DNA of 64,000 bases, from NCBI GenBank assembly GCA_000002445.1, contig CH464491.1, positions 3,648,001 through 3,712,000 on the forward strand, read 5' to 3'. How positions within the stretch are numbered: the stretch's first letter is position 1; every line of letters begins with the position of its first letter. Below are positions 6,418 to 25,122 of the stretch, one piece after another. This stretch comes from Trypanosoma brucei (taxonomy: Eukaryota). The position numbers were made by a program, and so were the translations under genes. The notes beneath the pieces were generated by a model. That model had not been told where the DNA came from. It was given only the letters and a program-made list of their open reading frames with translations, and did no database searches.

Positions 6418-9400
6418 ATGCGTTTTCCTAGCGGCTCCTTAGCTGCATACCCATTGGAGACATACATGGTTGTACCCGGTGAGAGGGCGTTAGAAGTATC
6501 AGTCTGTCCCACTGGAAGTTATGCTGCTTTACTGTCTGGAGGGCATCTACATTTTTTAACGTGCAACACCGATGTCGTAGTTATCGGCTCCGTGTCGATT
6601 TGTAATGCGATGGGCGATAAGGACTATGCAACTCACTTCTTATGGCACCCTTTGGGTGAGCAGCTAGTTGTTTCAACTTACCATGGTCGGCTGCTTTATT
6701 TTAACGTGGCTATTGATGTTCACCGTGAGAGGTGCCTGACTCAGGTGTATCGTGTCAACTCTCTTCCCATTGGATGCGCGGCGTCGTGTGTGCCCCTTAC
6801 AAATGAAGTGCATTTGGAGGGTGACGCTGTGGTTTCTTTAGTTTCTGCTGGACATCACTGCTTCTTCGCGTGTACCGCAACTGGCCTTGTTCGCGTGCTC
6901 GGGTGGTTCAAGAAGAACTTACTACATACCTATGATGCTAACTTTCTTAGCGGTGGGTTACATACATTTTCCGGCTTGGATGCTGCCTGTAGAGAACATA
7001 CGAGCAAGGACTTGTGTGCTGGCGGCACGCCAATCACATCTATCGCCATACTTGATATTTGTTATTCCTGCCAACTAGAGTTGACGGGGTTGTTGTTGTC
7101 TAGTGGACAATTTCTGCTTGCGAATTCTTCTGCGGGTGATGACTTTTCGTGCGACAACGTGGTTTTCAATGGCGTGTGTGTTGCGTCAGCGGGCACTAGC
7201 CGCGTGTGCATAAACCCGAGGCATCCGTTGGCAGTACTGGCTACGCCCACGGGTGAGCTCGAATGCAAACGAATAAGTGACGATCTTTCATTGACGGTGT
7301 TTTGGATTGATGTGAAGTGTGTTACAAGCGATGAATACCGAGGTTCCATTCGTTGTATGGTGTGGACAGACGATGGTGAAATGCTGTGCGTTGGCTACAA
7401 CCAGTCTGGCATTATGGTTCTACACTATAGTGGCATCTGTGTTTACTCTTCTCATGTTGCTGAGTACCCGCGACAGCACGGTTTGCGTCCTGCGATTGGT
7501 ATAGAGGGTTGCGCTTCCCTCTCATGGTGTGGAAACCAGCTGCTTATAGTGGATCCACGTGGATTGGCCTTGACGGTACTTGGTTTCAGCAAGGTTGTTT
7601 CATCTCCCTGTGCTGAAGCGACGGCCATGTTCACTCCCGCCTGCACCCTTGACGGCTCTAAATTGCGCTTTATAGAACAACAACATACGGATGGATCGTT
7701 GGCTTTTAGTGACACGGTACTTTTGAATCCGCGGTATGCGGTGGAGAATAACCCCATAACATACGGTGCCATAAGCAGCGACGGCAGCGTTGTAGCCTTG
7801 GCGGGAAGGAATGGTTTTCTACTATTTGACCGGTTAGCGCGGCGGTGGCGAACTATGCGCGATAGAAAAGAAGAACGTGAGTTTACTTGCGTGGCTCAAC
7901 CCGTATGGGTGAAGGATCTGATGGTGGTTTTTCCCGTCCGATTGGAAAGAACGCACGAGTATGAACTGCGCGTATACAACAGGGTTTTATCCAAGGGTGC
8001 TATGCTGGTGCGTATGCCTCTTCAGAATAAACCGTTGCGTCTCAGCGAGTGCCACGATGAGGACGGTGATGTTTTCGTGCATTTATTTGACGACTCAGGC
8101 ACTCTCCTCGTGTGGAGGTGCGTATTGTCATCCACGTATCCACATGCAAAGCACAACCTTGAGGTTTCGCTCAAGTTGGTAAAGCGTGTACCGTTGCCCC
8201 GAATGTTTCGTAACCCAGTTAACATGATGGCGATTCATCCAGCGAGGTTAAGCGCGTACAGGACGACATCTTCCCCATGTAAATTTCGGGGTAATCGTGA
8301 CGAGGCGCTTCTGCCCTATGTATTGTTTGTTGTGAGTGGCTCGAATGCCTTGATCGCTCTCGACCTCAACGCGGTAATGAACAGGGTGAGTGTGCGAGTG
8401 GCATCCGAGCCACTGGTCCCACTCACAACAATTTTTCCATCTGGGCTGTTTCACTTATGGGTCGACTACACGGCGCCTTTGGATGGCGCTGTTCTTCTTG
8501 CAGTGAGTGATCGGGGTGTGAGTATCTTGCACCTGTCGTTAGACACCAGTGGTGGTGTTACCTCTTCGCTGTGTGTAAACGAGTACCGTGTGGGCGATAG
8601 CACCGATCCAATTTTAGCTCCTGTAGGGCTCTCAGCGTACGATGGGTGTCTTCTCACTGCGTTTGCAGATGTGGATGCTTCCCAGCAAACTCTTAGCTCT
8701 GTGTCTCATTTTTCGGTGCGAACAGTTGTTGTGCCCTCTATGTACAACTACCGTGTCCTGGGGGAAGTGATTGCTCTTCGGTCAAAGATATCAAGTTCCA
8801 TTACGAAGGGACCAATCGGAGGGGCATCTGTTCAATCCGTTTCTTTCCCATGGGATGAGCGGGTGTTGTGTTGGATAGAAGGAATGCGGCGCAACTCCAC
8901 ACTTGTCTGCAACGCAGACTATTTGTTATGCACTTTGATTGACAGGGAGACATCAAGTTTAAGTGATTCCGAGGACCCGTGCTCTATGCTGCGGCTCACC
9001 CTATCACTCTTACAGCGCTACCCGGAATACCATCGGATTGTTGTCAACTGTTTGCGCAAACTAGAGCTTCCTTGTTGTCCCGTTGTCGTGGACAATATCG
9101 GCTCTACCAAGAAGTTGTTCGTGAGCTGTCTTGAGGAGAGTCGACTTGAGGAAGCTGCGCATCTGTTGCACCTTATTATGGTTGATGATGGAGAGGGTGG
9201 TAAGAACGGCTCGTTAGACACCCTACGGCAAACTTTGGTTTGCGCGACGCGCATCTTAATGCTTGCTGTGTCCTGCAAGAAGGTTCAGTTAATTTATACC
9301 TTGTTGCCGTTCATGGCTTTGATTTTCAAAGAGTTACTAGTGTCGGACGATGAAGAGCGTCTGCGCGCGTTGTTTTCTGATGCGAAGGGTCAATGCGCTC

Positions 9401-10164
9401 TCGCCGGTTTGAGAAGGAGCACAGCGAATTTATCGCTGCTTCTCGATACGGAGCAGGATTTCACTACCCTTTCGAGCCCATGGAGTTTTTCATATGACAC
9501 TTCTGAGGTTGGAATGAAAGAAATTCGATCTCTTACCACTTTCCTTGTGTCCGGAGACTCCGGCTTAAGTGAAGCACTCGAGTATGTAACAACTGACTGC
9601 TTACGCTCGGGGCGCTTACTGACGCTTTACGAGATAGTGCGCGGATTTTCTCTTTCACCCTACGGGATGATGGAACTCAAGTTAGATGAAGTGAGAGATC
9701 CACATTGTGGCGTTTCTTCGCATGGAGAAGGGAGTAGTGTGAGGGGTCACTTCCCACACCTGCCTACCCATGGTGAGTTGTTCCTCAATCTTTTCACGGG
9801 CATCCACGAGGAGTTCAGTTTAACACGTAGCCCACGTTGTGTGGGGAATGAGCTACGGCGCCATAGGTCCTCAGTTGTTGGTGCGGAGGTAGCGACCACT
9901 GATTTTACGCTGTGGACCCTAGCTCAGAGCATTTTATATTCCACCCCAGGTCTGCCAGAAACGTTGCGGCACCTCCGTGACCACTTCGCGATGTGGGATG
10001 AGTGTGTCTTAGCGATAAACATTATTCTTATGTGTTTTACTGATGTCGTTCATCAGCTGCGGCGACACTCAGAGCTAGTCCAAGCACTTCAGCATTTGCT
10101 GGTTGATGAGAGAAACTGCGGGTATAAGTCCTTTATACGGTATTGCCTTGAAAATGTAAGTTAG
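6418..10164 (+). CDS. Large conserved hypothetical protein (1248 aa); N-terminal half rich in beta-strand-like hydrophobic/aromatic periodicity (possible beta-propeller), C-terminal half helical
   Basis: A 3.7 kb uninterrupted ORF with balanced amino-acid composition and no low-complexity bias. ORFs of this length do not arise by chance. No family recognised with confidence; an RIC1-like or other trafficking scaffold is a guess only. Confidence 0.85.
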   Translation: MRFPSGSLAAYPLETYMVVPGERALEVSVCPTGSYAALLSGGHLHFLTCNTDVVVIGSVSICNAMGDKDYATHFLWHPLGEQLVVSTYHGRLLYFNVAIDVHRERCLTQVYRVNSLPIGCAASCVPLTNEVHLEGDAVVSLVSAGHHCFFACTATGLVRVLGWFKKNLLHTYDANFLSGGLHTFSGLDAACREHTSKDLCAGGTPITSIAILDICYSCQLELTGLLLSSGQFLLANSSAGDDFSCDNVVFNGVCVASAGTSRVCINPRHPLAVLATPTGELECKRISDDLSLTVFWIDVKCVTSDEYRGSIRCMVWTDDGEMLCVGYNQSGIMVLHYSGICVYSSHVAEYPRQHGLRPAIGIEGCASLSWCGNQLLIVDPRGLALTVLGFSKVVSSPCAEATAMFTPACTLDGSKLRFIEQQHTDGSLAFSDTVLLNPRYAVENNPITYGAISSDGSVVALAGRNGFLLFDRLARRWRTMRDRKEEREFTCVAQPVWVKDLMVVFPVRLERTHEYELRVYNRVLSKGAMLVRMPLQNKPLRLSECHDEDGDVFVHLFDDSGTLLVWRCVLSSTYPHAKHNLEVSLKLVKRVPLPRMFRNPVNMMAIHPARLSAYRTTSSPCKFRGNRDEALLPYVLFVVSGSNALIALDLNAVMNRVSVRVASEPLVPLTTIFPSGLFHLWVDYTAPLDGAVLLAVSDRGVSILHLSLDTSGGVTSSLCVNEYRVGDSTDPILAPVGLSAYDGCLLTAFADVDASQQTLSSVSHFSVRTVVVPSMYNYRVLGEVIALRSKISSSITKGPIGGASVQSVSFPWDERVLCWIEGMRRNSTLVCNADYLLCTLIDRETSSLSDSEDPCSMLRLTLSLLQRYPEYHRIVVNCLRKLELPCCPVVVDNIGSTKKLFVSCLEESRLEEAAHLLHLIMVDDGEGGKNGSLDTLRQTLVCATRILMLAVSCKKVQLIYTLLPFMALIFKELLVSDDEERLRALFSDAKGQCALAGLRRSTANLSLLLDTEQDFTTLSSPWSFSYDTSEVGMKEIRSLTTFLVSGDSGLSEALEYVTTDCLRSGRLLTLYEIVRGFSLSPYGMMELKLDEVRDPHCGVSSHGEGSSVRGHFPHLPTHGELFLNLFTGIHEEFSLTRSPRCVGNELRRHRSSVVGAEVATTDFTLWTLAQSILYSTPGLPETLRHLRDHFAMWDECVLAINIILMCFTDVVHQLRRHSELVQALQHLLVDERNCGYKSFIRYCLENVS

Positions 10165-13153: not shown

Positions 13154-16100
13154 ATGACGAAAGAGGATCACGGTGAGGAAATGGTAACCCACACCCCTCA
13201 AGTGCTGAATGTACGGACTACCGGTGAATCGGTTTCAGCAAACCCATTGAGGGGCGTTGGGTTGAAGGATTGTGGCGTTTTCTCGCCAACTTCCTCTACA
13301 TTTTGTGATACAAGCCGTTTGATGGGAAATACCGGACGTAGCGTAGAAAACAGCACTGTCACATTTGTCACAGGGGCACCGGGGAAAGAGGAGGCGGACA
13401 GGCGGCATTGTCGTGTCGGCACAATTGCTGCGGTAGCACTTCTCATGCTAACTGGGGTATTTACACTTAGTTTTACGAGTTTGCTGTCAGCCCACTATAT
13501 TGGGTCTAGTGTCGTTATTGGTACTACAGGGCTTATCGAGAAGGAAGCTGTTAGGAGTGTTGTTAAAATTATGCGGTCCACTGTTCTTCAGCTCCCGGAC
13601 TTTGCGCATATCGTGAATGCGAAGTATATTCGAAATCAAACTTCTTTATATACTGTGAACAGGTTTCCCAGGGACCCTCGAGCACTGTTGTATTCACTTA
13701 TGAGCCTGCTGTCGACGTTTAAAGACACCATCGCATATTTTAAGTTTGTTCACGAGGGTGGTTCGTATGCGTTTGCTGTTAATTATGATGTAGGGGACGG
13801 TGGAAATAATTCTGTGGTGTTAGGTGCGTACAACAATGACTCGTCTCGTGCGAGTTTTGTCGTGTACGATGCGATACGGTTGAAACGTTTGCATGAAGAT
13901 TCCAATCGGAATTGGGATATTTCTCATGATTTGAGCAGGACGCTCAGTCCTTTTGGAGCAGTTGCGCGTCAATGGCATGAAAGTGGAAGCAATAAGCGGT
14001 GGATTCCAAGTGAGATTGAGCACACCGGTGAGTACTTTAATTATGTGATTCCTTTTCATGTTGGTGGCGCCCTTGGTGCATGCATTGTTGGTCTGTCAAC
14101 TGATCGCTTGCTTCTTGAGTCGCGACCCCTTGTGGAAGCCTTGCGTTCCCACGGACGTGCAATGTTGTTTGATGATTCGAGGGATATTGTTATTTTGAAC
14201 AGTTGGGGGCAGCCGCAGTCATGGGATGAAAACCCCTCTGACGGGGAGCTAGTATTCAAGCACTTGACGTTGGAGGGGATAAATGACAGCATTGTGGTTG
14301 ATTTAGTCCGGGAGATGGAAAAGCATCGTGATCCTACTACTGACCGCCTAAGCGATTCGGTTGAGTTAACGTTTCCTAATAGCGGGAGTCATGTGGATGG
14401 CCGACTGGGCCGAATTACCGACGAAAGCGGTCTGGACGTCACGTTGGCTGTGGTGACTATGCGTTCAGATTTTCTTGAAGGAGTCGTACGCACGCGGAAC
14501 GTGACTATTGTTTCCATCTCGGTGATAATATTGTTGTCCGCCGTTTTTTCCCTCGTAAGCACTTATTACTTGGTGAAGCCTCTGATGCTCCTTGTATCGG
14601 CTTTAAAAAGTGCTTCCAATTTAGAAATCCCCGATAATGCTGACATATTCTTGGGCAGATCCCGGATTGTGGAGGTGAGAAAAATACAGGGGCACTATGC
14701 GAAGCTTCGACGCCAGTTGGCGGTTTTACTAAAGTTCATCCCGGAGGCTATCTTAGCCCGCGTTGAATCTAAGAGTGAAGCTGGAGGGCATATTCGTGCA
14801 AATGGATCAGCAACTGAGACCCCTGGCGAGTCGTCCACGGCATTCGTGAGGATTATGGGGGCAAGCATCAGCGTCACTTGGAATGCTGGTGATCAGCAGC
14901 GCGACGTGGCGCTCAACTGCGGAATCTTCAAGGAAAAGCCAAATGTATTCAACCGCAGGCATTGTACCGTTATAGCTATTCAAGTGTACCACCCAGATGT
15001 TTGGAAAAGTTCTACAAAATACCATGCCGCTTTGATCGAAGTGGCTACCGAGCACTCTGGTTGTGTTGAGGCTCTTGATCCTGATAGAGCCCTCATTAGT
15101 TTCGGTGCACATGCAGCGCTTCCGATGCACTGCAGGAGATGCTGCCAGTTTGCCTTTGATTTATTCGCCAAACTTCCTTTAGATCACCGAGACTCCGTTA
15201 CCATGTTGGTGGATACCAATGAGTTTCTAGTTGGAACTTGTGGCGCGTTCTCGCGAAATGCACGAGTCCTCTTCGGCGCAGATCATCTGTTTCAACTCTC
15301 GCACGCAGTTAGGGATGGTCCCTGCCGTATTGCAGCCACATCTGGTGGAGCCTCACATATGCAAGGTTTTTTAGCTTTCCCCGTGGATTGTGTGCTCCTT
15401 CCCTGCTCCACGCTCCCCATTGTATTGTTTGAGTTGAGACCAGGAGAGAGCTCGAGTGAAGTTTCGCTTAGTATTTCCAAGCAGTTTCGCCTGGGTTTTG
15501 CGGCAATGCGCCAGGGGAGGTATGGAGAGGCGATGGCACATTACCTTCCCATGGTGAAGATGGATATGCAGGCGAAGCGCTTGATGAGGTTATGCCGTCA
15601 GCGCTGTCGGCGTAACGACACGGTCCCATATGTGCGGGTGTTGGACAACCATTACTGTGTTAATTCTAGTGATTGTAAACCTGAGGAACAGGATGAAAGC
15701 GATATCAAAGATAGGGTACCCGAGACAATTGACTCTCCACGACGTCCGGATGGGGAGGGTTCTGAAAGTGATTCATCAGACCAAGGCAGTGAATCGCTGT
15801 TCAAAATGTATGCTCCATCTTCCTCATCCTCGTTGGACGGTTCAGGCTGTGCTGAGGGTGCAAATGCTGCAGACGTCGTACCCCTTTTTCTAACCGATTC
15901 CAATCGGAATGTTTGGACACGTTCACTGAAGAAAATTAGTGAAGGAGCTTTCAGCACAATTTTCCTTGGTGTGGCTGAGGATGGGGCTCAGGTCGCCATC
16001 AAGTGCATTCCGCGGTTGCGACGTGATGTTGTGGCTGAATCTTTGGAGAAGGAGATGGAGGTGGCGTCGAAGCTCCATCATCCTAATATTGTCCGGTATG

Positions 16101-16741
16101 TGTCGTGTAGCATTACACCATCGCACCTCTCGATAATTATGGAATACGTGCCTGGTGGCTCTTTGCATTCTGTTATAAAAAATTTTGGGTGCGTCAGCCC
16201 TTATGTTGCGCGGCGCTTCACCGTCGACATTCTACAGGGACTCAATTATCTCCATAACCTTGGTATTGTTCACTGCGATGTGAAACCGCACAACGTCCTA
16301 CTGGGTACTGACGGTGTTTGCAAGTTGTCAGACTTCGGTTCAACAATATCTGAAGCGTCAGTTATGGCCAGAACCTTAGCTGATGGTGTGATGCTTCGCG
16401 GTACAGCACTATATATGGCTCCGGAAGTGGCAGCTGGTGGGCGTTGCACGCCCCAATCCGATATATTTTCCTTCGGTATTTCGTTGTTGGAGATGTTACT
16501 TGGGCGCCCACCATGGCAGTGGAGCAGCACGGCTCCAGCAGGAAGTGATGCGACTCGCCTCCGCAGCCTCTTTAACCGGGATTTGCTTTTTGTTCAGAGT
16601 CTTGCGCTCGGTCATTTAGAGCCTGTCATACCGGCTTCTGTGGATCATGAAGCGGCTGCTTTCGTCCGCGCCTGTTGCCATATGAATCCAAGCATGAGGC
16701 CTTCCGCATCCAGTTTACTTTCATATGCATTTTTGTTGTGA
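13154..16741 (+). CDS. Membrane-associated Ser/Thr protein kinase (STE-like) with two predicted TM helices, an inter-TM (ecto?) domain and a class-III nucleotidyl-cyclase-homology-like middle domain
   Basis: C-terminal kinase motifs: VAIKCI (VAIK), HRD-type catalytic loop IVHCDVKPHNVLL, DFG (LSDFGS), and APE (YMAPEVA). Hydrophobic helices sit at about aa 90-110 (IAAVALLMLTGVFTLSFTSLL) and about aa 455-485 (VTIVSISVIILLSAVFSLVSTYYLV). The region at about aa 590-760 (CTVIAIQVYHPDVW...GCVEALDPDRALISFGAHAALPMH...LVGTCGAFSRNARVLFGADHLFQLSHAV) resembles a cyclase homology domain in spacing but lacks the canonical metal-binding Asp pair (inference). An acidic Ser/Asp/Glu linker precedes the kinase. 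Confidence 0.9.
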   Translation: MTKEDHGEEMVTHTPQVLNVRTTGESVSANPLRGVGLKDCGVFSPTSSTFCDTSRLMGNTGRSVENSTVTFVTGAPGKEEADRRHCRVGTIAAVALLMLTGVFTLSFTSLLSAHYIGSSVVIGTTGLIEKEAVRSVVKIMRSTVLQLPDFAHIVNAKYIRNQTSLYTVNRFPRDPRALLYSLMSLLSTFKDTIAYFKFVHEGGSYAFAVNYDVGDGGNNSVVLGAYNNDSSRASFVVYDAIRLKRLHEDSNRNWDISHDLSRTLSPFGAVARQWHESGSNKRWIPSEIEHTGEYFNYVIPFHVGGALGACIVGLSTDRLLLESRPLVEALRSHGRAMLFDDSRDIVILNSWGQPQSWDENPSDGELVFKHLTLEGINDSIVVDLVREMEKHRDPTTDRLSDSVELTFPNSGSHVDGRLGRITDESGLDVTLAVVTMRSDFLEGVVRTRNVTIVSISVIILLSAVFSLVSTYYLVKPLMLLVSALKSASNLEIPDNADIFLGRSRIVEVRKIQGHYAKLRRQLAVLLKFIPEAILARVESKSEAGGHIRANGSATETPGESSTAFVRIMGASISVTWNAGDQQRDVALNCGIFKEKPNVFNRRHCTVIAIQVYHPDVWKSSTKYHAALIEVATEHSGCVEALDPDRALISFGAHAALPMHCRRCCQFAFDLFAKLPLDHRDSVTMLVDTNEFLVGTCGAFSRNARVLFGADHLFQLSHAVRDGPCRIAATSGGASHMQGFLAFPVDCVLLPCSTLPIVLFELRPGESSSEVSLSISKQFRLGFAAMRQGRYGEAMAHYLPMVKMDMQAKRLMRLCRQRCRRNDTVPYVRVLDNHYCVNSSDCKPEEQDESDIKDRVPETIDSPRRPDGEGSESDSSDQGSESLFKMYAPSSSSSLDGSGCAEGANAADVVPLFLTDSNRNVWTRSLKKISEGAFSTIFLGVAEDGAQVAIKCIPRLRRDVVAESLEKEMEVASKLHHPNIVRYVSCSITPSHLSIIMEYVPGGSLHSVIKNFGCVSPYVARRFTVDILQGLNYLHNLGIVHCDVKPHNVLLGTDGVCKLSDFGSTISEASVMARTLADGVMLRGTALYMAPEVAAGGRCTPQSDIFSFGISLLEMLLGRPPWQWSSTAPAGSDATRLRSLFNRDLLFVQSLALGHLEPVIPASVDHEAAAFVRACCHMNPSMRPSASSLLSYAFLL

Positions 16742-19028
16742 TGGTCAACATTAATAGGAGCTTGCAACATTATTCCCATGTGTAGAACCACTATTTTTTT
16801 CCTTTTTTTTTTTGGACGTTACCTTTTCACTTTAGAGAGTTGTTTTTCCCCTTTTTGGGAAACCGTACTGTTATTTATAATGACGTGTTCGGATATTTCA
16901 TTAGGATGTTACGATGTTATTGTGTGTTGGTTTTTCACGTAGTAATTATGATAATCGGTGGTCTGCTGTTCGTCGGCGGCGTTTGTGAAGGTGACTTTCT
17001 TATCCTTATTCCTCTCTTTTTTTTCTTTTTTTAAAAAACCTTTTTTTACATTCCGACGTTCGTTCGTTTGCTTGGTTGAGTTTTTTTTTTTAAATTGTTA
17101 TTCCCCTCCCCTCCTCTCCACACTTGTTGTTGTTGTTGTTGTTGTTCTTTTAGCGTCAGTGGTGCTTTGGTCCTTTACTTTATGTGAAGACGTTTTCTTT
17201 TCTTTTTTTTTTTTCGTGCTCATATAAATAAACAAATATTTGCTCTGTTTTACGTATTTCATTCCGTAATTGACTGCAACGATTTTTTCTTTTTTTTTTC
17301 TTTTTTACCCTCTCTCCCTCCTTTTACTTCTAAAGTTCAAATGTAGAGATGGAATGTATGCCGCTACGCCCGCTTTCCCTTTTTCTTTTTTTCTCATTTC
17401 TCTCTGCATGGCAAAACTCTTTTCCCACGTTTGTTTTCGTTTTTTTTTTTTCCTGGCCCCATTTGGATTTATACGAAATTAAATAAATAAATGTAAAAGA
17501 TCATGCATTATAACTTATTTTTCTGAGCACTTTTTATGTGGTGTTTTGTTTTGTTTTGTTTTTTTTTTTCAGTTGAAAATAACAAAAGAGGGAAATAAAG
17601 GGAGCCACCGCGCGCGCGGGTTGCGGTATTTTAGGTATTAGTATTGTGTTGTGCGGAGGGGGAGGGGTGAGAGGGAAATAATAACTTTTATCATATGACT
17701 GTACATAAATGCGTGTTTGTATTTTATGTTTTATATTTAAGTTTTCAAATGTTTTATCGTTGCGCCCACTGGTCCTGTACGTGGGCTCACACGCCATAAC
17801 CCTTCCGTTGTTTGTTGTTTGTTTTTTTTTTTTTACATTTTTAGTTGTTTTGTTTGGACCAAATATGTAAATATATTTGTCCTCTATATTTTTCACGGTT
17901 CCTGTCCGCGCCACCAGTTGCTTTTTGTACGGTTAATCCACATTTGTGTAAAAGCACTGCAATCCCTCTCTTTTTGTTTATTATTATTATTATTTTTTTT
18001 TTTTCAAAGAGGAAAAGCGCGCGTGACGGGTTAAATATCGGAACGTCTATTATATATATTTATATATATTCCCGCTTTTTTTTCTTTTCACAATCTTGTT
18101 GTCTCCTTGCATATTGAATAGGTATTTTCCCTCGTGTATAACTGCACTTATATATGCTTTAGAGGGACAGGTACAGGGACAGAAGGGAAAGAAAAAAAAA
18201 AAAGAGAACGAAAGAAAGAATAACTCATTGCTATTTAAAAAAAAAAAAATGTTTCTTTTAATGTTGTCTTCCGTCTGCCTGCATCTCTTTTTCTTTTTCT
18301 TTCTTCTCTTTGTTGGTTTAACCTGTCATACACTTCTTCTCAACCTTTTCCTCTTTTTTGCGTTGTGTGTTGTGACACGACATTTTTTCTTTTTTTTTTT
18401 GTGTATCATTAACATAACATTTGGCCAACAGTAACAAGAAAAAAAAAAGAAAACACAAGCAAAAACAAAACAAAACAGAGCAAAGCAAAAAAAAAAAACA
18501 AATAATAGAAGATTTGTTTTTTTTTCTTTGTTGCATTCATTAGGGCGTATTTTATTCGTTGAGTGACGGTTAGGCCTTTCCTTTCGGCTTTTCATCTCAC
18601 AAATCCCACATTTGTACCAAATATTTGCTGGTAGAGAACTGCGATTGGAGGTTCCGATCTTTTTTTTTTGTCTTTTTTTTTTTTTTTTAAAGAAAAATCA
18701 AAAAAGGGTGCATCTCAGACCATTCCTTTGTAGCAAACATTTGGTTTAAACAAGTGCAGGACTGTGATATAAGGAAAGGAAAATAGTTAAGTGAGCAAGA
18801 GGGAGAAATACAGAAGGGAGCGGAATATCGTCATAAACAGTTGACACGAGAGAAAGAGAGAGAAAAAAAAAGAGAGAGTTTGTGTGTGAGTTTGTGTGTG
18901 AGTGTGTGTAGTTAATATCATTATCAGCGGGTAGTGTCAGCATCTAACAACAATAAGAGGAAGAAAGCTCGTGTCGTGTGTTGGAGGGGAGAAGGTGTGT
19001 GGTATCGCGGATACACAAGCAAGAAAGA

Positions 19029-19059
19029 AAAATAAATAAATAAATAAATAAATAAATAA
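19029..19059 (+). repeat. (TAAA)n microsatellite, ~8 units
   Basis: Seen directly: aaataaataaataaataaataaataaataa. Confidence 0.95.
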
Positions 19060-19211
19060 GGAAAGAAAGCTGGAGGTGGAGGTGGGGAAAAGCGATAGAA
19101 AAGGAAAACAAGAAAAAAAAACAAAAGGAAATAATAATTCAAAAGGGAAAGTACAACGCGTGTGAGGAGAGGGACAAGTGTGTCTGTTTGTCTGTTTGTG
19201 TGTAGGAAAGT

Positions 19212-19892
19212 GTGTCCGAGACACAGCATAATAACGTACATTGGTGTAGTTTGCGTATGACCATTATGATGGACGGCCCAAAATCTTCTACGCGAGCTAC
19301 TGAAACAATTAATCAAAGCGATGGGCAGCATCGACAGCAGTGGTGCGACCGTCAGCAGACGGGGCGTAATTGCAATAGTGCAGGCAGCGATTCCCAATCA
19401 GCGGATCCACAACAATCGGGATTACATGAGTTAGGGCAATTGACAGCAGTGGCAGTAGAGCGTCGGTGCGTGGAACAGCGGCATTTAGAGCACCTTTACC
19501 AATCCGCTTTTCACAGCAGTCATGTTCCTGCAATATCTGTGTGGAATTACATGCGTCGCATAGGCAAATACTCACGGTGCTCACCAGAATGCTTCATCAT
19601 CTGTATCATATTCATTGATCGGTACGTTGCAGCAACGAATTGTCCAATAACTTTTCGGAACATTCACCGGCTTTTGATAACTTCAATGTTGGTGAGTGTA
19701 AAGTTGCGGGATGACTCATTTTATAGCAATTCTTACTTTGCAGGTATTGGTGGCGTTAGTAATGAGGAACTTAATAGATTAGAGATTGAGTTTCTCATGA
19801 CAATTGATTGGCGCACATGGGTGGAACCAAGTGATTTTAACATGTACTGTGAGCAACTGAGATCTCGTTGCTCGGCGAATCAGGAGCAGTAA
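19212..19892 (+). CDS. PHO80-like (PREG/CYC2-family) cyclin
   Basis: YMRRIGKYSRCSPECFIICIIFIDRYV...ITFRNIHRLLITSMLVSVKLRDDSFYSNSYFAGIGGVSNEELNRLEIEFLMTIDWRTWV has the same layout as the Pho80 cyclin fold (D-R-(Y/F) motif, a hydrophobic helix, then L-E-x-x-FL-x-x-(I/L)-(D/N)-(W/F)-x-L). 226 aa. The start could alternatively be the internal MTIMMD. Confidence 0.7.
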   Translation: MSETQHNNVHWCSLRMTIMMDGPKSSTRATETINQSDGQHRQQWCDRQQTGRNCNSAGSDSQSADPQQSGLHELGQLTAVAVERRCVEQRHLEHLYQSAFHSSHVPAISVWNYMRRIGKYSRCSPECFIICIIFIDRYVAATNCPITFRNIHRLLITSMLVSVKLRDDSFYSNSYFAGIGGVSNEELNRLEIEFLMTIDWRTWVEPSDFNMYCEQLRSRCSANQEQ

Positions 19893-23679: not shown

Positions 23680-25122
23680 ATGCAAGGCGCATACGGAGGC
23701 CGCGGTCGTGGGATGGCACGTGGTCGTGGGGGAGGCGGTGGCTTTGATTCCTCAAGAGGCGCAGGCCGACACCCTTATATGACAAGTAATGTTCCAACGG
23801 ACACTTTATGTGTACGCATTACGGAGGTCCGCCAACCCGTCACAGAGGATATGATGTTTCGCGTGTTTGCCAGCATTTCAACTAACCCGCGCCGGATACA
23901 AATTGCTCCCTCTTCCGATCCCAATGAAACAGTTGTCATGGCGCAATTCTCTGATACATACGCAACGCAGCGGGTGATGGAGAACTTAAACAACCGTAAC
24001 ATATTCAATGATGGTAACAAGATGATGATGACTTATTCGGCGTGGGAGCCAACGCCTGTGCTGCCGGCGCCGGTACCGCCAGTTCCCGTCTACGGTGGTG
24101 CAGCACCAGTTTACGGTGGTGTTCAGGTGAACCCAGGCGTGGCTTTTCCACAACCTCAGGTACATCAACCGCAACCCGGAGTGTATGCCCAGCCTCGACA
24201 GCAACCGATGCCACAAATGCCCATGGCAGCTTCGGTACCTCCGATGAGACTCGGAAACGATCAACAGGGCGGACGAAACAACCGCGGGCGTGGGCGGAAT
24301 GGATCTCGAGGTGGTGCAGCGGGTGCGGTGCCCCCTGGCATGATGGGTTTTGATCCAATGATGATGGGATACCCGGCAATGGCTTCCATAATGCAAATGC
24401 CTGGTGGGATGATGGCTTTTATGAACCAGCAGAGGCCGCCACAGAATTCCCCAACCGTTTTTCTCAGCGTAACAATAGTTCCAGAGTCCGAACCACTGCA
24501 TTCTATCTTTGTTCTTATTGAAGTGTACGGCGGGGTCGTAACCATCCGCCGCAACCACAACAGGAAGGAAATTCTTACGGTGAAGATGGCTTCCGTGCCC
24601 GAGGCGGACAGCGTCGTACAATTCTTGAGGAAGGTCCCCTTTGCTGGCGGTACTGTCAGTGCTAAACGGTTCCCCACTTACACTGAGCGTACACCATGCA
24701 CAGATGATGGCAACCCTCATGACAGTGCAACAGTTCAGTACGATTTCACAACGGCTCGCCATCGCAGCCCCGGACAGCGCAGCAGATGCCATCCATCAAG
24801 TGTGTTGAAGGTAACTGGATGCGGCGGCTACTCGGAAGCGGACGTGATGACGTATTTTACAAGTGAGAATTTCTACCCGGACCGCATCATCAAAGACGAC
24901 GAGGGATCCTTCACTGTATACATGGCTGATGTCGAAACGGCCGTCGCACTACTACTGAAGTGCCACAACAATGTTTGCGGGGAGGAACGCTCAAACGTTC
25001 TCTTCATTGAGGGGCCGAGGGATACAACAACCTCCGCCACAGCGGCCAACAATGCTTCTGCTTCCGGCAGTGCAGTGGCAGAGAATGTAAATGAAGGTGC
25101 TGGGGAAAATGGTTCAGCATAA
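23680..25122 (+). CDS. PTB/hnRNP-L-like RNA-binding protein with an N-terminal RGG box and a Gln/Pro/Met-rich low-complexity linker; paralogue of the gene at 30018
   Basis: N-terminal GGRGRGMARGRGGGGG. PTB-style RRM segments: LCVRITEVRQPVTEDMMFRVFASI, and TIVPESEPLHSIFVLIEVYGGVVTIRRNHNRKEILTVKMASVPEADSVVQFL. The latter aligns by eye to NSVPETVALHSLWVLLEVYGNVNSLKRQFSSKTSVIAHFQNVHDARLAVQHL in the downstream gene. A purine-rich 5' leader lies immediately upstream. Confidence 0.8.
   Translation: MQGAYGGRGRGMARGRGGGGGFDSSRGAGRHPYMTSNVPTDTLCVRITEVRQPVTEDMMFRVFASISTNPRRIQIAPSSDPNETVVMAQFSDTYATQRVMENLNNRNIFNDGNKMMMTYSAWEPTPVLPAPVPPVPVYGGAAPVYGGVQVNPGVAFPQPQVHQPQPGVYAQPRQQPMPQMPMAASVPPMRLGNDQQGGRNNRGRGRNGSRGGAAGAVPPGMMGFDPMMMGYPAMASIMQMPGGMMAFMNQQRPPQNSPTVFLSVTIVPESEPLHSIFVLIEVYGGVVTIRRNHNRKEILTVKMASVPEADSVVQFLRKVPFAGGTVSAKRFPTYTERTPCTDDGNPHDSATVQYDFTTARHRSPGQRSRCHPSSVLKVTGCGGYSEADVMTYFTSENFYPDRIIKDDEGSFTVYMADVETAVALLLKCHNNVCGEERSNVLFIEGPRDTTTSATAANNASASGSAVAENVNEGAGENGSA

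What the first reader, a model, noticed from the sequence alone, without database searches (positions are those of the whole stretch)
13154..16741. Receptor-like architecture: two-TM Ser/Thr kinase with an inter-TM domain and a cyclase-homology-like, probably non-catalytic, module
The 1195-aa protein has a bona fide STE-like kinase domain at the C-terminus (VAIK, HCDVKPHN, DFG, APE all intact). It also carries two strongly hydrophobic helices (~aa 90-110 and ~455-485) bracketing a ~340-aa domain that would be extracytoplasmic if both helices span the membrane. After the second helix lies a ~170-aa region whose spacing resembles class III adenylyl/guanylyl cyclase catalytic domains (…IAIQVYHPDVW…GCVEALDPDRALISFGAHAALPMH…LVGTCGAFSRNARVLFGADHLFQLSHAV…). 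The two metal-coordinating Asp residues and the substrate-specifying Lys/Asp are not evident. This suggests a degenerate CHD used as a dimerisation or regulatory module. Trypanosomes lack classical receptor kinases, so a TM kinase with an ecto-domain and a pseudo-cyclase is a candidate environmental sensor. An acidic, Ser-rich linker (aa ~800-880: EEQDESDIKDR…DGEGSESDSSDQGSES) separates the CHD-like region from the kinase and looks like a phospho-regulatory segment.
Basis: inference. Interest (0 to 1): 0.6.

Follow-up and report, generated by a model that had tools for sequence, protein, structure and literature searches.

The report
RDK1: dCache receptor kinase, dead cyclase

Summary
The ORF at 13154-16741 (+) is real and encodes 1195 aa. 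It is 99% identical to T. brucei RDK1 (Tb927.11.14070).

All the main observations hold:
- The STE11-type kinase domain is intact (aa 920-1195).
- Two hydrophobic helices (aa 88-110 and 450-473) flank a ~340-aa domain.
- A class III cyclase-homology domain (aa ~586-768) and an acidic, Ser-rich linker follow.

The inter-TM domain is a double-Cache (dCache) sensor, not a periplasmic-binding-protein fold. The juxtamembrane segment looks like HAMP plus a cyclase-transducer motif. A TPR-like hairpin follows the cyclase domain. The whole 830-aa non-kinase part is collinear with intact bacterial dCache-cyclase-TPR enzymes.

RDK1 keeps one of the six canonical cyclase catalytic residues (D644). None of 46 kinase-linked relatives keeps more than two, so the domain is a pseudo-cyclase.

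The architecture was published in 2021 (PMC8519429) and again in two 2026 preprints. One preprint found kinase activity but no adenylyl cyclase activity.

My increment is small. It gives a clade-wide, residue-level reason for the missing cyclase activity, and it argues against the guanylyl cyclase idea that preprint left open. The ligand, the topology in vivo and the coupling mechanism remain inferred.

The parts
13154..16741 (+). RDK1 coding sequence (1195 aa plus stop codon)
   Evidence: It is 99% identical over 100% of the query to 'Repressor of differentiation kinase 1 [T. brucei equiperdum]'.
13154..13414 (+). N-terminal cytoplasmic tail (aa 1-87). It is acidic at the start, has a conserved NPL motif near aa 30, and has a basic cluster (KEEADRRHCR) just before TM1.
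   Evidence: The cytoplasmic placement follows from the positive-inside rule and is an inference.
13415..13483 (+). TM helix 1 (aa ~88-110)
   Evidence: Kyte-Doolittle peak of 2.04 at aa 88-106. It is part of a continuous helix (aa 81-160) in the AF2 model.
13484..14500 (+). dCache (double Cache/PDC) sensor domain (aa ~111-449), predicted to be extracytoplasmic
   Evidence: AF2 model with mean pLDDT 81 and pTM 0.69. Nearly all of the 50 listed Foldseek hits in the PDB are dCache ligand-binding domains, e.g. MkcA, PctD, TlpQ, TlpC and HK1S-Z6, with E from 2e-6 to 8e-4. hhalign against Pfam-verified bacterial dCache regions gives 97.5%, E = 8e-12. N-glycosylation sequon density is 1.46 per 100 aa here against 0.41 in the cytoplasmic part.
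14501..14572 (+). TM helix 2 (aa ~450-473)
   Evidence: Kyte-Doolittle peak of 2.69, the highest in the protein. It lies in a continuous helix (aa 437-488) in the model.
14573..14731 (+). HAMP-like helix-connector-helix (aa ~474-526), with a conserved Pro (P476) and Glu (E507)
   Evidence: Alignments A4 and A6. The AF2 model has helices at aa 471-488 and 506-526. The paralogue P0068 gives a sub-threshold Pfam HAMP match at the aligned position (21.7 bits against a cutoff of 25). A profile search of the PDB found nothing. Assignment is inconclusive.
14732..14764 (+). Cyclase-transducer-like motif KFIPEAILARV (aa 527-537). P529 is invariant.
   Evidence: It aligns with RFVPQDLV / KYLPLKLV / RYVPRDLV immediately upstream of the catalytic domain in canonical cyclases. 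The proline is invariant in A6.
14765..14908 (+). Low-complexity, probably disordered insertion (aa 538-585). It is absent from canonical cyclases.
   Evidence: pLDDT is below 50 for aa 537-592. Canonical cyclases have only gaps across the alignment columns that hold this insertion (about 109-207).
14909..15457 (+). Class III cyclase-homology domain (aa ~586-768), catalytically degenerate (pseudo-cyclase). The catalytic-position equivalents are Q610, A640, D644, V705, D710 and Q714.
   Evidence: hhalign 99.1%, E = 1e-18. A profile built from kinase-linked members only hits Cya2 at 1.5e-7 in the PDB. All listed Foldseek hits are class III cyclases, with target-normalised TM-scores of 0.62-0.70. 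Residue mapping is and the census.
15458..15643 (+). TPR-like helical hairpin (aa 769-830), shared with bacterial dCache-cyclases
   Evidence: Three helices with pLDDT above 90. Weak Pfam TPR_2 match at aa 778-797. The family profile hits consensus TPR proteins. TPR is also found after the cyclase domain of P0055 and P0066.
15644..15910 (+). Acidic, Ser-rich linker (aa 831-919)
   Evidence: 17 Ser, 12 Asp, 8 Glu, net charge -13. The composition is conserved across the family, with net charge from -4 to -27 and length from 88 to 257 aa.
15911..16738 (+). STE11/MAP3K-type Ser/Thr protein kinase domain (aa 920-1195) with all catalytic motifs
   Evidence: Pfam Pkinase E = 8.7e-54. Best PDB relatives are MAP3K2 (3e-30) and ASK1. 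Kinase activity of immunoprecipitated RDK1 is reported in bioRxiv 10.64898/2026.05.05.722970.

Best explanation
RDK1 is a two-pass receptor Ser/Thr kinase. It was made by fusing a complete bacterial-type receptor cyclase to an STE11/MAP3K-type kinase through an acidic disordered linker. The receptor-cyclase part runs TM1, dCache sensor, TM2, HAMP-like segment, transducer motif, class III cyclase domain, TPR-like hairpin.

The cyclase domain has lost its chemistry. It most likely persists as the dimeric transducer: a signal sensed by the dCache domain on the far side of the membrane would pass through TM2 and the HAMP-like segment, change the geometry of the pseudo-cyclase dimer, and so set the activity of the two attached kinase domains. 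The active kinase keeps bloodstream-form trypanosomes from differentiating into procyclic forms.

Shown here: the domain identities, their order, collinearity with intact bacterial enzymes, and loss of catalytic residues across the whole kinase-linked clade.

Shown by others: membrane association, kinase activity, no adenylyl cyclase activity, and the differentiation phenotype.

Inferred: dimerisation, the direction of signalling, that the dCache domain faces outside and binds a ligand, and what that ligand is.
For: Identity.

Kinase.

dCache:
- Foldseek.
- hhalign 97.5%, with mismatched controls at 0.1% and 0.3%.
- 9 relatives carry Pfam dCache_1.

Cyclase homology:
- 13 relatives retrieved with the non-kinase query carry PF00211.
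- Where PF00211 coordinates were obtained, they overlap the stretch aligned to RDK1.
- hhalign 99.1%.
- A profile built from kinase-linked members only hits Cya2 (1.5e-7) and CyaB (1.5e-4) in the PDB.
- Foldseek.

Collinearity: P0055, P0066 and P0078 are dCache_1 + Guanylate_cyc, two of them with a TPR. They keep most of the catalytic residues in the alignment. P0078 comes from a Verrucomicrobiales genome.

Loss of catalysis: the alignment with four canonical cyclases maps
- metal Asp1 to Q610,
- substrate Lys to A640,
- metal Asp2 to D644,
- substrate Thr/Asp to V705,
- transition-state Asn to D710,
- transition-state Arg to Q714,
and shows deletions of 10 aa and 2 aa. Among 46 kinase-linked members the maximum is 2 of 6 canonical residues, and none has the substrate Lys.

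Literature:
- No adenylyl cyclase activity, unchanged cAMP, active kinase (bioRxiv 10.64898/2026.05.05.722970).
- Membrane fraction and the RNAi differentiation phenotype (PMC3894213).
- HHpred architecture (PMC8519429).
- A dimeric AlphaFold3 model and a low-pH phenotype of the Leishmania orthologue (bioRxiv 10.64898/2026.09.15.751656).
Against: - No ligand is known, and I did not establish any ligand-binding motif in the dCache domain.
- The localisation data conflict: cell periphery (PMC3894213), ER when overexpressed (PMC8519429), and plasma membrane plus mitochondrial inner membrane by BioID (2026 preprint). Exposure of the sensor to the outside of the cell is therefore unproven.
- A 48-aa disordered insertion sits exactly between the transducer motif and the cyclase fold. 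In canonical cyclases these are rigidly connected, so the classical coupling route may be broken.
- An 89-aa disordered linker separates the pseudo-cyclase from the kinase, which makes tight conformational coupling less obvious.
- The HAMP assignment is sub-threshold.
- The AF2 model of aa 470-830 used an alignment that included four canonical cyclases, so its fold is not fully independent evidence.
Confidence: 0.7

Rival explanations
1. RDK1 is bifunctional: the central domain is an active guanylyl cyclase, or a cyclase for another nucleotide, working alongside the kinase. The 2026 T. brucei preprint left this open.
For: The fold is that of a class III cyclase, and the best solved match is the guanylyl cyclase Cya2. 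D644, the second metal-binding Asp, is retained. Only adenylyl cyclase activity, not guanylyl cyclase activity, has been assayed (bioRxiv 10.64898/2026.05.05.722970).
Against: Five of the six catalytic residues are substituted, including the first metal-binding Asp (Q610) and both transition-state residues (D710, Q714). A 2-aa deletion removes part of the GDxVN motif. D644 itself is not conserved in close orthologues, where it is E, M, E or N. No kinase-linked relative has more than 2 of 6.
Confidence: 0.05
2. The pseudo-cyclase is not only a scaffold but a nucleotide- or metal-binding allosteric site, like the degenerate second site of heterodimeric cyclases. It would couple the cell's nucleotide state to kinase output.
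For: The position of the second metal-binding Asp is D or E in 26 of 46 kinase-linked members. The position of the first is E in 9 of them, including the closest orthologues. The family has its own invariant residues in the former active-site region (G636, F650, G694, C696). Phosphoproteins that change on RDK1 knock-down are enriched for cyclic-nucleotide signalling (bioRxiv 10.64898/2026.05.05.722970).
Against: T. brucei itself has Q610. The substrate-binding Lys is absent from all 46 members. There are no binding data. The conserved residues can equally be explained by fold or dimer-interface constraints.
Confidence: 0.15
3. The N-terminal module is an evolutionary relic used only as a membrane anchor. 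It would place the kinase on an internal membrane (ER or mitochondrion), and no external signal is sensed.
For: Overexpressed tagged RDK1 co-localises with the ER marker BiP (PMC8519429). BioID found mainly mitochondrial neighbours (bioRxiv 10.64898/2026.05.05.722970). No ligand is known.
Against: The ecto-domain is well conserved across trypanosomatids: mean column identity is 35%, with invariant W283 and P300. It folds confidently as a complete dCache domain. A mere anchor would not need 340 conserved residues. The N-terminus is acidic (2 K/R against 5 D/E in the first 30 aa) and so does not resemble a mitochondrial presequence. Leishmania mutants show a low-pH phenotype (bioRxiv 10.64898/2026.09.15.751656).
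Confidence: 0.1

Closest known systems
T. brucei RDK1 (Tb927.11.14070) as described in PMC3894213, PMC8519429 and bioRxiv 10.64898/2026.05.05.722970
   Same: It is the same gene (99% identity to the T. b. equiperdum copy). The published architecture matches what I found: bacterial sensor-like domain, TM helix, adenylyl/guanylyl cyclase fold, protein kinase.
   Different: Nothing in the sequence differs. The analysis adds three points that I did not find in the passages retrieved from those papers:
- residue-level and clade-wide evidence that the cyclase domain is dead;
- the HAMP-like segment, transducer motif and TPR-like elements;
- collinearity with intact bacterial dCache-cyclase-TPR enzymes.
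Bacterial receptor-type class III adenylyl/guanylyl cyclases with dCache, HAMP-like and TPR elements (e.g. P0078 from a Verrucomicrobiales genome; P0055, P0066)
   Same: Domain order and homology match over the whole ~750 aa non-kinase part: TM1, dCache, TM2, HAMP-like segment, F.P transducer motif, cyclase domain, TPR-like hairpin.
   Different: The bacterial proteins keep most of the catalytic residues (e.g. P0055 keeps all six in alignment A4) and end after the TPR. RDK1 has lost 5 of 6 catalytic residues. It also has a 48-aa insertion before the cyclase fold, deletions of 10 aa and 2 aa inside it, and a C-terminal kinase.
Metazoan receptor guanylyl cyclases (ligand-binding domain, TM, pseudokinase, active cyclase)
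   Same: They share the logic of a dimeric single-chain receptor that combines a kinase-like and a cyclase-like domain, one of them catalytically dead and acting as a regulator. This comparison is made in bioRxiv 10.64898/2026.05.05.722970.
   Different: The order is inverted and the roles are swapped: here the cyclase is dead and the kinase is active. RDK1 has two TM helices rather than one. Its sensor is a dCache domain rather than an ANF-receptor-type domain (the latter from established knowledge, not tested here).
Leishmania RDK1 and the tandem STE kinases LmxM.30.1830/1840 (bioRxiv 10.64898/2026.09.15.751656), and the T. brucei cyclase-like TM kinases Tb927.3.5650, Tb927.9.12400 and Tb927.10.1910 (PMC8519429)
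   Same: They belong to the same family of dCache + cyclase-like + STE kinase proteins. The search of 50%-identity cluster representatives found 46 kinase-linked representative sequences.
   Different: They are paralogues with 20-35% identity. Their linker and insertion lengths differ.
Trypanosome receptor adenylyl cyclases (ESAG4/GRESAG4 family)
   Same: These are membrane proteins of the same organism with an extracellular domain and a cytoplasmic class III cyclase domain (PMC8519429, introduction).
   Different: They have one TM helix, an active cyclase and no kinase (established knowledge). No entry labelled as a trypanosome cyclase appears among the 43 solved structures hit at E <= 1e-5 by the family profile, whereas cyanobacterial and Pseudomonas enzymes lead the list. 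This suggests that RDK1's cyclase-like domain is not derived from that family.

Membership tests
Eukaryotic protein kinase, STE group / STE11 (MAP3K)-like | Pfam Pkinase match above the gathering threshold, and nearest relatives in the STE group | tested here: met
   183.1 bits against a cutoff of 31.7. The top solved relatives are MAP3K2, MAP3K5, PAK1 and MST3/4.
Eukaryotic protein kinase, STE group / STE11 (MAP3K)-like | Catalytic residues: VAIK Lys, HRD-type Asp, DFG Asp, APE | tested here: met
   K950 (VAIK), D1042 (HCD), D1060 (DFG) and APE at 1089. The Gly-rich loop is partly degenerate (SEGAFS). Activity is shown in bioRxiv 10.64898/2026.05.05.722970.
Class III nucleotidyl cyclase catalytic domain (PF00211) | Sequence match to the family model by the protein itself | tested here: not met
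   No PF00211 match even at E <= 10 for the whole protein or for aa 476-800.
Class III nucleotidyl cyclase catalytic domain (PF00211) | Homology detectable by profile methods, and the same fold | tested here: met
   hhalign 99.1%, E = 1e-18, against canonical cyclases. The kinase-linked-only profile hits Cya2 at 1.5e-7. All listed Foldseek hits are class III cyclases.
Class III nucleotidyl cyclase catalytic domain (PF00211) | Six catalytic residues: two metal-binding Asp, substrate Lys and Asp/Thr, transition-state Asn and Arg | tested here: not met
   The equivalents are Q610, A640, D644, V705, D710 and Q714, so 1 of 6 is retained. The maximum among 46 kinase-linked relatives is 2 of 6. RDK1 is therefore a homologue of the domain, not a member of the enzyme class.
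dCache_1 sensor domain (PF02743) | Sequence match to the family model by the protein itself | tested here: not met
   No Pfam family is found for aa 101-450 at E <= 10.
dCache_1 sensor domain (PF02743) | Long N-terminal helix followed by two tandem PDC/PAS-like alpha/beta modules, lying between two TM helices | tested here: met
   AF2 secondary structure and topology. Nearly all of the 50 listed Foldseek hits are dCache ligand-binding domains. hhalign gives 97.5% against bacterial regions with Pfam dCache_1 matches.
dCache_1 sensor domain (PF02743) | A recognisable ligand-binding motif in the membrane-distal module (e.g. the amino-acid or amine motifs) | not tested
   I only inspected this by eye. 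The family has a conserved PW motif (VV.PW.ENGS..RW) where many dCache domains have RPWY, but no residue-level structural alignment was available.
HAMP domain (PF00672) | A ~50-aa helix-connector-helix immediately after TM2, with a conserved Pro in helix 1 and a conserved Glu at the start of helix 2 | tested here: inconclusive
   The pattern and the predicted helices are present. Pfam HAMP matches only the paralogue P0068 at the aligned position, at 21.7 bits against a cutoff of 25. The family profile finds no HAMP structure in the PDB.
Metazoan receptor guanylyl cyclase | Domain order: extracellular domain, one TM helix, kinase-homology domain, active cyclase | tested here: not met
   RDK1 has two TM helices, the cyclase-like domain precedes the kinase, the cyclase is dead and the kinase is active. 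It is an analogue, not a member.

The most novel reading that the evidence does not exclude
The whole kinetoplastid/euglenozoan family of dCache + pseudo-cyclase + STE11 kinases would be a receptor-kinase class built on a prokaryotic sensory chassis. In it the dead cyclase dimer is the obligatory mechanical relay, and possibly a nucleotide-binding allosteric site, that converts ligand or pH sensing by dCache into kinase activation. This would be the functional mirror image of animal receptor guanylyl cyclases. If so, recombinant ecto-domains could be screened for the long-sought environmental cues of trypanosome and Leishmania differentiation.
Probability: 0.35. Interest if true: 0.6.

Novelty: already known. 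Interest (0 to 1): 0.3.

Why it matters
Trypanosomatids lack G-protein-coupled receptors and receptor tyrosine kinases. How they sense host and vector environments is an open question. RDK1 represses the bloodstream-to-procyclic transition and is one of very few candidate sensors.

That idea and the architecture are already in the literature, so this window adds no discovery. Two points remain useful.
- The central domain cannot be a cyclase on sequence grounds, and this holds across the whole kinase-linked clade. That explains the negative adenylyl cyclase assay and makes the proposed guanylyl cyclase activity unlikely.
- Intact bacterial proteins with the same collinear layout exist. They could serve as experimental references or as donors for chimeras.

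Tried and rejected
- Single-sequence searches of the non-kinase part found nothing meaningful. This covers Pfam at E <= 10 and phmmer against the PDB. The weak Img2 and integrase matches are chance.
- The word-indexed homologue search returned only two proteins. The exhaustive representative search was needed.
- Aligning all 92 hits at once failed, so I split them.
- My first motif print-out used wrong coordinates. I redid it.
- The local HMM alignment put the first strand of the canonical cyclases in the wrong register (RGFTTISE against RHCTVIAI). The MAFFT alignment with full canonical sequences fixed it, placing metal Asp1 opposite Q610. As a result, the metal-Asp1 column of the census is reliable for the kinase-linked group but not for the non-kinase group.
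- Periplasmic-binding-protein fold for the ecto-domain: rejected.
- Tandem paralogue in this window, as seen in T. grayi and Leishmania: rejected. The upstream 1248-aa ORF is RIC1-like.
- A third TM helix at aa 740-758: rejected, because these are beta strands of the cyclase fold.
- A HAMP family profile against the PDB found no hit.
- A taxonomy look-up for environmental kinase-linked relatives returned no names.
- I searched the literature for a prior 'pseudo-cyclase' analysis of these kinases and found none.

Full report
**What is there.** The window carries an uninterrupted ORF at 13154-16741 on the + strand, encoding 1195 aa. It lies in a run of same-strand ORFs typical of a trypanosomatid polycistronic unit. 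Its first 900 aa are 99% identical over their full length to 'Repressor of differentiation kinase 1' of T. brucei equiperdum, and 48% identical to a T. vivax kinase. The gene is therefore RDK1 (Tb927.11.14070). RNAi of this STE11-like kinase drives bloodstream forms towards procyclic forms (PMC3894213).

**Checking the observation.**
- Kinase: the domain is unambiguous. Pfam Pkinase covers aa 925-1193 with E = 8.7e-54, and the best solved relatives are MAP3K2, ASK1, PAK and MST kinases.
- Kinase motifs: VAIK is at 947, HCDVKPHN at 1040, DFG at 1060 and APE at 1089.
- Hydrophobic helices: two strong segments lie at aa 88-106 and 450-468 (Kyte-Doolittle 2.04 and 2.69).
- Third hydrophobic peak: a peak at aa 740-758 falls on beta strands of the central domain in the structure model. 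That explains the doubtful 'third TM' noted in PMC3894213.
- Linker: it spans aa 831-919, is acidic (net charge -13) and is Ser-rich (17 Ser). This composition, though not the length, is conserved across the family.

**The non-kinase part is invisible to single-sequence methods.** Pfam at E <= 10 and phmmer against the PDB find nothing credible. An exhaustive search of 1.8 billion cluster representatives with aa 1-900 gave 92 relatives. Their Pfam content was as follows:

| Pfam family | Relatives carrying it |
|---|---|
| PF00211 Guanylate_cyc | 13 (best E = 3e-28) |
| dCache_1 | 9 |
| MCP-like_PDC_1 | 3 |
| HAMP | 1 |
| Protein kinase domain | 42 |

The named relatives are T. grayi, T. melophagium, Leishmania, Strigomonas and the euglenid Peranema.

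**The inter-TM domain is a dCache sensor.** An AF2 model of aa 80-500, built on 14 family sequences, has mean pLDDT 81 and pTM 0.69. It shows one long helix running from TM1, two alpha/beta modules, and a long helix running into TM2. Nearly all of the 50 listed Foldseek hits in the PDB are dCache ligand-binding domains of bacterial chemoreceptors and histidine kinases, including MkcA, PctD, TlpQ, TlpC and HK1S-Z6. A profile of the family's ecto-domain matches the dCache regions of bacterial relatives at 97.5% (E = 8e-12), and those regions carry Pfam dCache_1 matches. Mismatched control comparisons give 0.1% and 0.3%. The periplasmic-binding-protein idea is therefore wrong. The dCache assignment agrees with PMC8519429 (similarity to TlpQ by HHpred) and with bioRxiv 10.64898/2026.09.15.751656 (dCACHE by AlphaFold3 and Foldseek).

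**The central domain is a class III cyclase-homology domain.** Three tests avoid circularity.
- A profile of 41 kinase-linked family members aligns to a profile of five canonical cyclases with 99.1% probability and E = 1e-18.
- A profile of 19 kinase-linked members only, searched against all PDB sequences, has the guanylyl cyclase Cya2 as its top hit (1.5e-7), with CyaB at 1.5e-4.
- Where I obtained PF00211 coordinates in distant relatives, they overlap the stretch that aligns to RDK1.

The AF2 model of aa 470-830 has pLDDT 77, rising above 90 through most of the fold. All its listed Foldseek hits are class III cyclases, with target-normalised TM-scores of 0.62-0.70. That alignment contained four canonical cyclases, so I treat the model as supporting evidence only.

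**It is a dead cyclase.** MAFFT alignment with four canonical enzymes fixes the register.

| Canonical catalytic residue | RDK1 equivalent |
|---|---|
| Metal Asp 1 (F.D) | Q610 |
| Substrate Lys | A640 |
| Metal Asp 2 (GD) | D644 (retained) |
| Substrate Thr/Asp | V705 |
| Transition-state Asn | D710 |
| Transition-state Arg | Q714 |

There is also a 10-aa deletion after strand 1 and a 2-aa deletion inside GDxVN. D644 is not conserved in the closest orthologues, where it is E, M, E or N. Across 46 kinase-linked relatives none has more than two of the six residues, and none has the substrate Lys.

This gives a sequence-level reason for the negative adenylyl cyclase assay and the unchanged cAMP reported in bioRxiv 10.64898/2026.05.05.722970. 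It also makes the guanylyl cyclase activity suggested there unlikely. I found no discussion of these residues in the passages retrieved from the three papers that describe the domain, and no paper using 'pseudo-cyclase' for these proteins.

**Further anatomy.**
- HAMP-like segment: aa 474-526 form a helix-connector-helix with a conserved Pro and Glu. This resembles a HAMP domain, but the evidence is sub-threshold. Pfam HAMP scores 21.7 bits against a cutoff of 25 in the paralogue P0068 at the aligned position, and the family profile hits nothing in the PDB.
- Transducer motif: aa 527-537 (KFIPEAILARV, invariant Pro) align with the F/Y.P motif that directly precedes the catalytic domain of canonical cyclases.
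- Insertion: in the kinase-linked family, but not in canonical enzymes, a disordered insertion of 50-100 aa follows this motif (aa 538-585 in RDK1).
- TPR-like hairpin: after the cyclase fold, three confident helices (aa 769-830) form a TPR-like hairpin. The bacterial relatives have the same element.
- Bacterial counterparts: P0055, P0066 and P0078 combine dCache_1 and Guanylate_cyc, two of them with a TPR, and keep most of the catalytic residues. P0078 is encoded in a Verrucomicrobiales genome. The whole 830-aa non-kinase part of RDK1 is therefore collinear with a complete bacterial-type receptor cyclase. This fits the bacterial-origin proposal of PMC8519429.

**Mechanism.** The most economical reading is a dimeric receptor. 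The dCache domain senses something on the far side of the membrane. TM2 and the HAMP-like segment transmit the signal. The pseudo-cyclase dimer acts as the relay or scaffold that sets the activity of the two STE11 kinase domains, and the kinase output holds the parasite in the bloodstream-form state.

| Status | Elements |
|---|---|
| Shown here | Domain identities, domain order, collinearity, loss of catalytic residues |
| Shown by others | Membrane association, kinase activity, absence of adenylyl cyclase activity, RNAi phenotype |
| Inferred | Dimerisation, direction of coupling, outward orientation, the ligand |

Several points weigh against tight coupling or surface sensing. The disordered insertion sits at the transducer/cyclase junction. 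A disordered linker of 89 aa precedes the kinase. The published localisations conflict (periphery, ER, plasma membrane plus mitochondrion). The acidic N-terminus does not resemble a mitochondrial presequence. Sequon density is higher in the ecto-domain, which fits lumenal or extracellular exposure, but the numbers are small.

**Verdict.** The finding is correct at its coordinates, and its interpretation is essentially right. It rediscovers a named, experimentally studied protein whose architecture is already published, so I rate the novelty 'already known'. The residual value lies in the clade-wide pseudo-cyclase evidence and in the collinear bacterial counterparts.

Noticed in passing
window 16742-19211: A 2.47-kb ORF-free, AT-rich stretch (GC 0.30-0.38) follows the RDK1 stop codon. 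It is probably a long 3'UTR or intergenic region. That could relate to the strong stage regulation reported in PMC8519429 (7-fold for mRNA and 40-fold for translation, bloodstream over procyclic forms).
   Followed up: no
window 14765-14908 (aa 538-585): All kinase-linked family members have a low-complexity, low-confidence insertion of 50-100 aa exactly between the cyclase-transducer-like F.P motif and strand 1 of the cyclase fold. Canonical cyclases have none. It should loosen the classical coupling, and its role is unexplained.
   Followed up: partly
window 15233-15241 (aa 694-696, VGTCG) and aa 636, 650, 743: The pseudo-cyclase has its own invariant residues across 19 kinase-linked members: G636, F650, G694, C696 and P743. 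The conserved Cys in GTCG stands where the four canonical cyclases have M, L, F or V. The reason is unknown.
   Followed up: no
T. grayi proteins P0003 (KEG11654) and P0005 (KEG11656), same 21.6-kb contig: T. grayi encodes the RDK1 orthologue and a paralogue with 37% identity to RDK1 two genes apart. Leishmania has a tandem pair, LmxM.30.1830/1840 (preprint). The T. brucei window has no second copy, and the upstream 1248-aa ORF is RIC1-like.
   Followed up: partly
window 13154-13414 (aa 1-87): An NPL motif near aa 30 of the N-terminal tail is conserved in T. brucei, T. vivax, T. grayi and T. melophagium. This supports the start codon at 13154. Its function is unknown.
   Followed up: no
window 15371-15427 (aa 740-758): A third hydrophobic peak (Kyte-Doolittle 1.89) coincides with two beta strands of the cyclase fold. 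This accounts for the spurious third TM helix that TMHMM reports in the literature.
   Followed up: yes
window 6418-10164, 19212-19892, 23680-25122: The neighbouring genes are a RIC1-like protein (beta-propeller plus RIC1 C-terminal region), a PHO80-type cyclin and an RRM-domain protein, all on the + strand. There is no functional link to RDK1 that I can see.
   Followed up: partly
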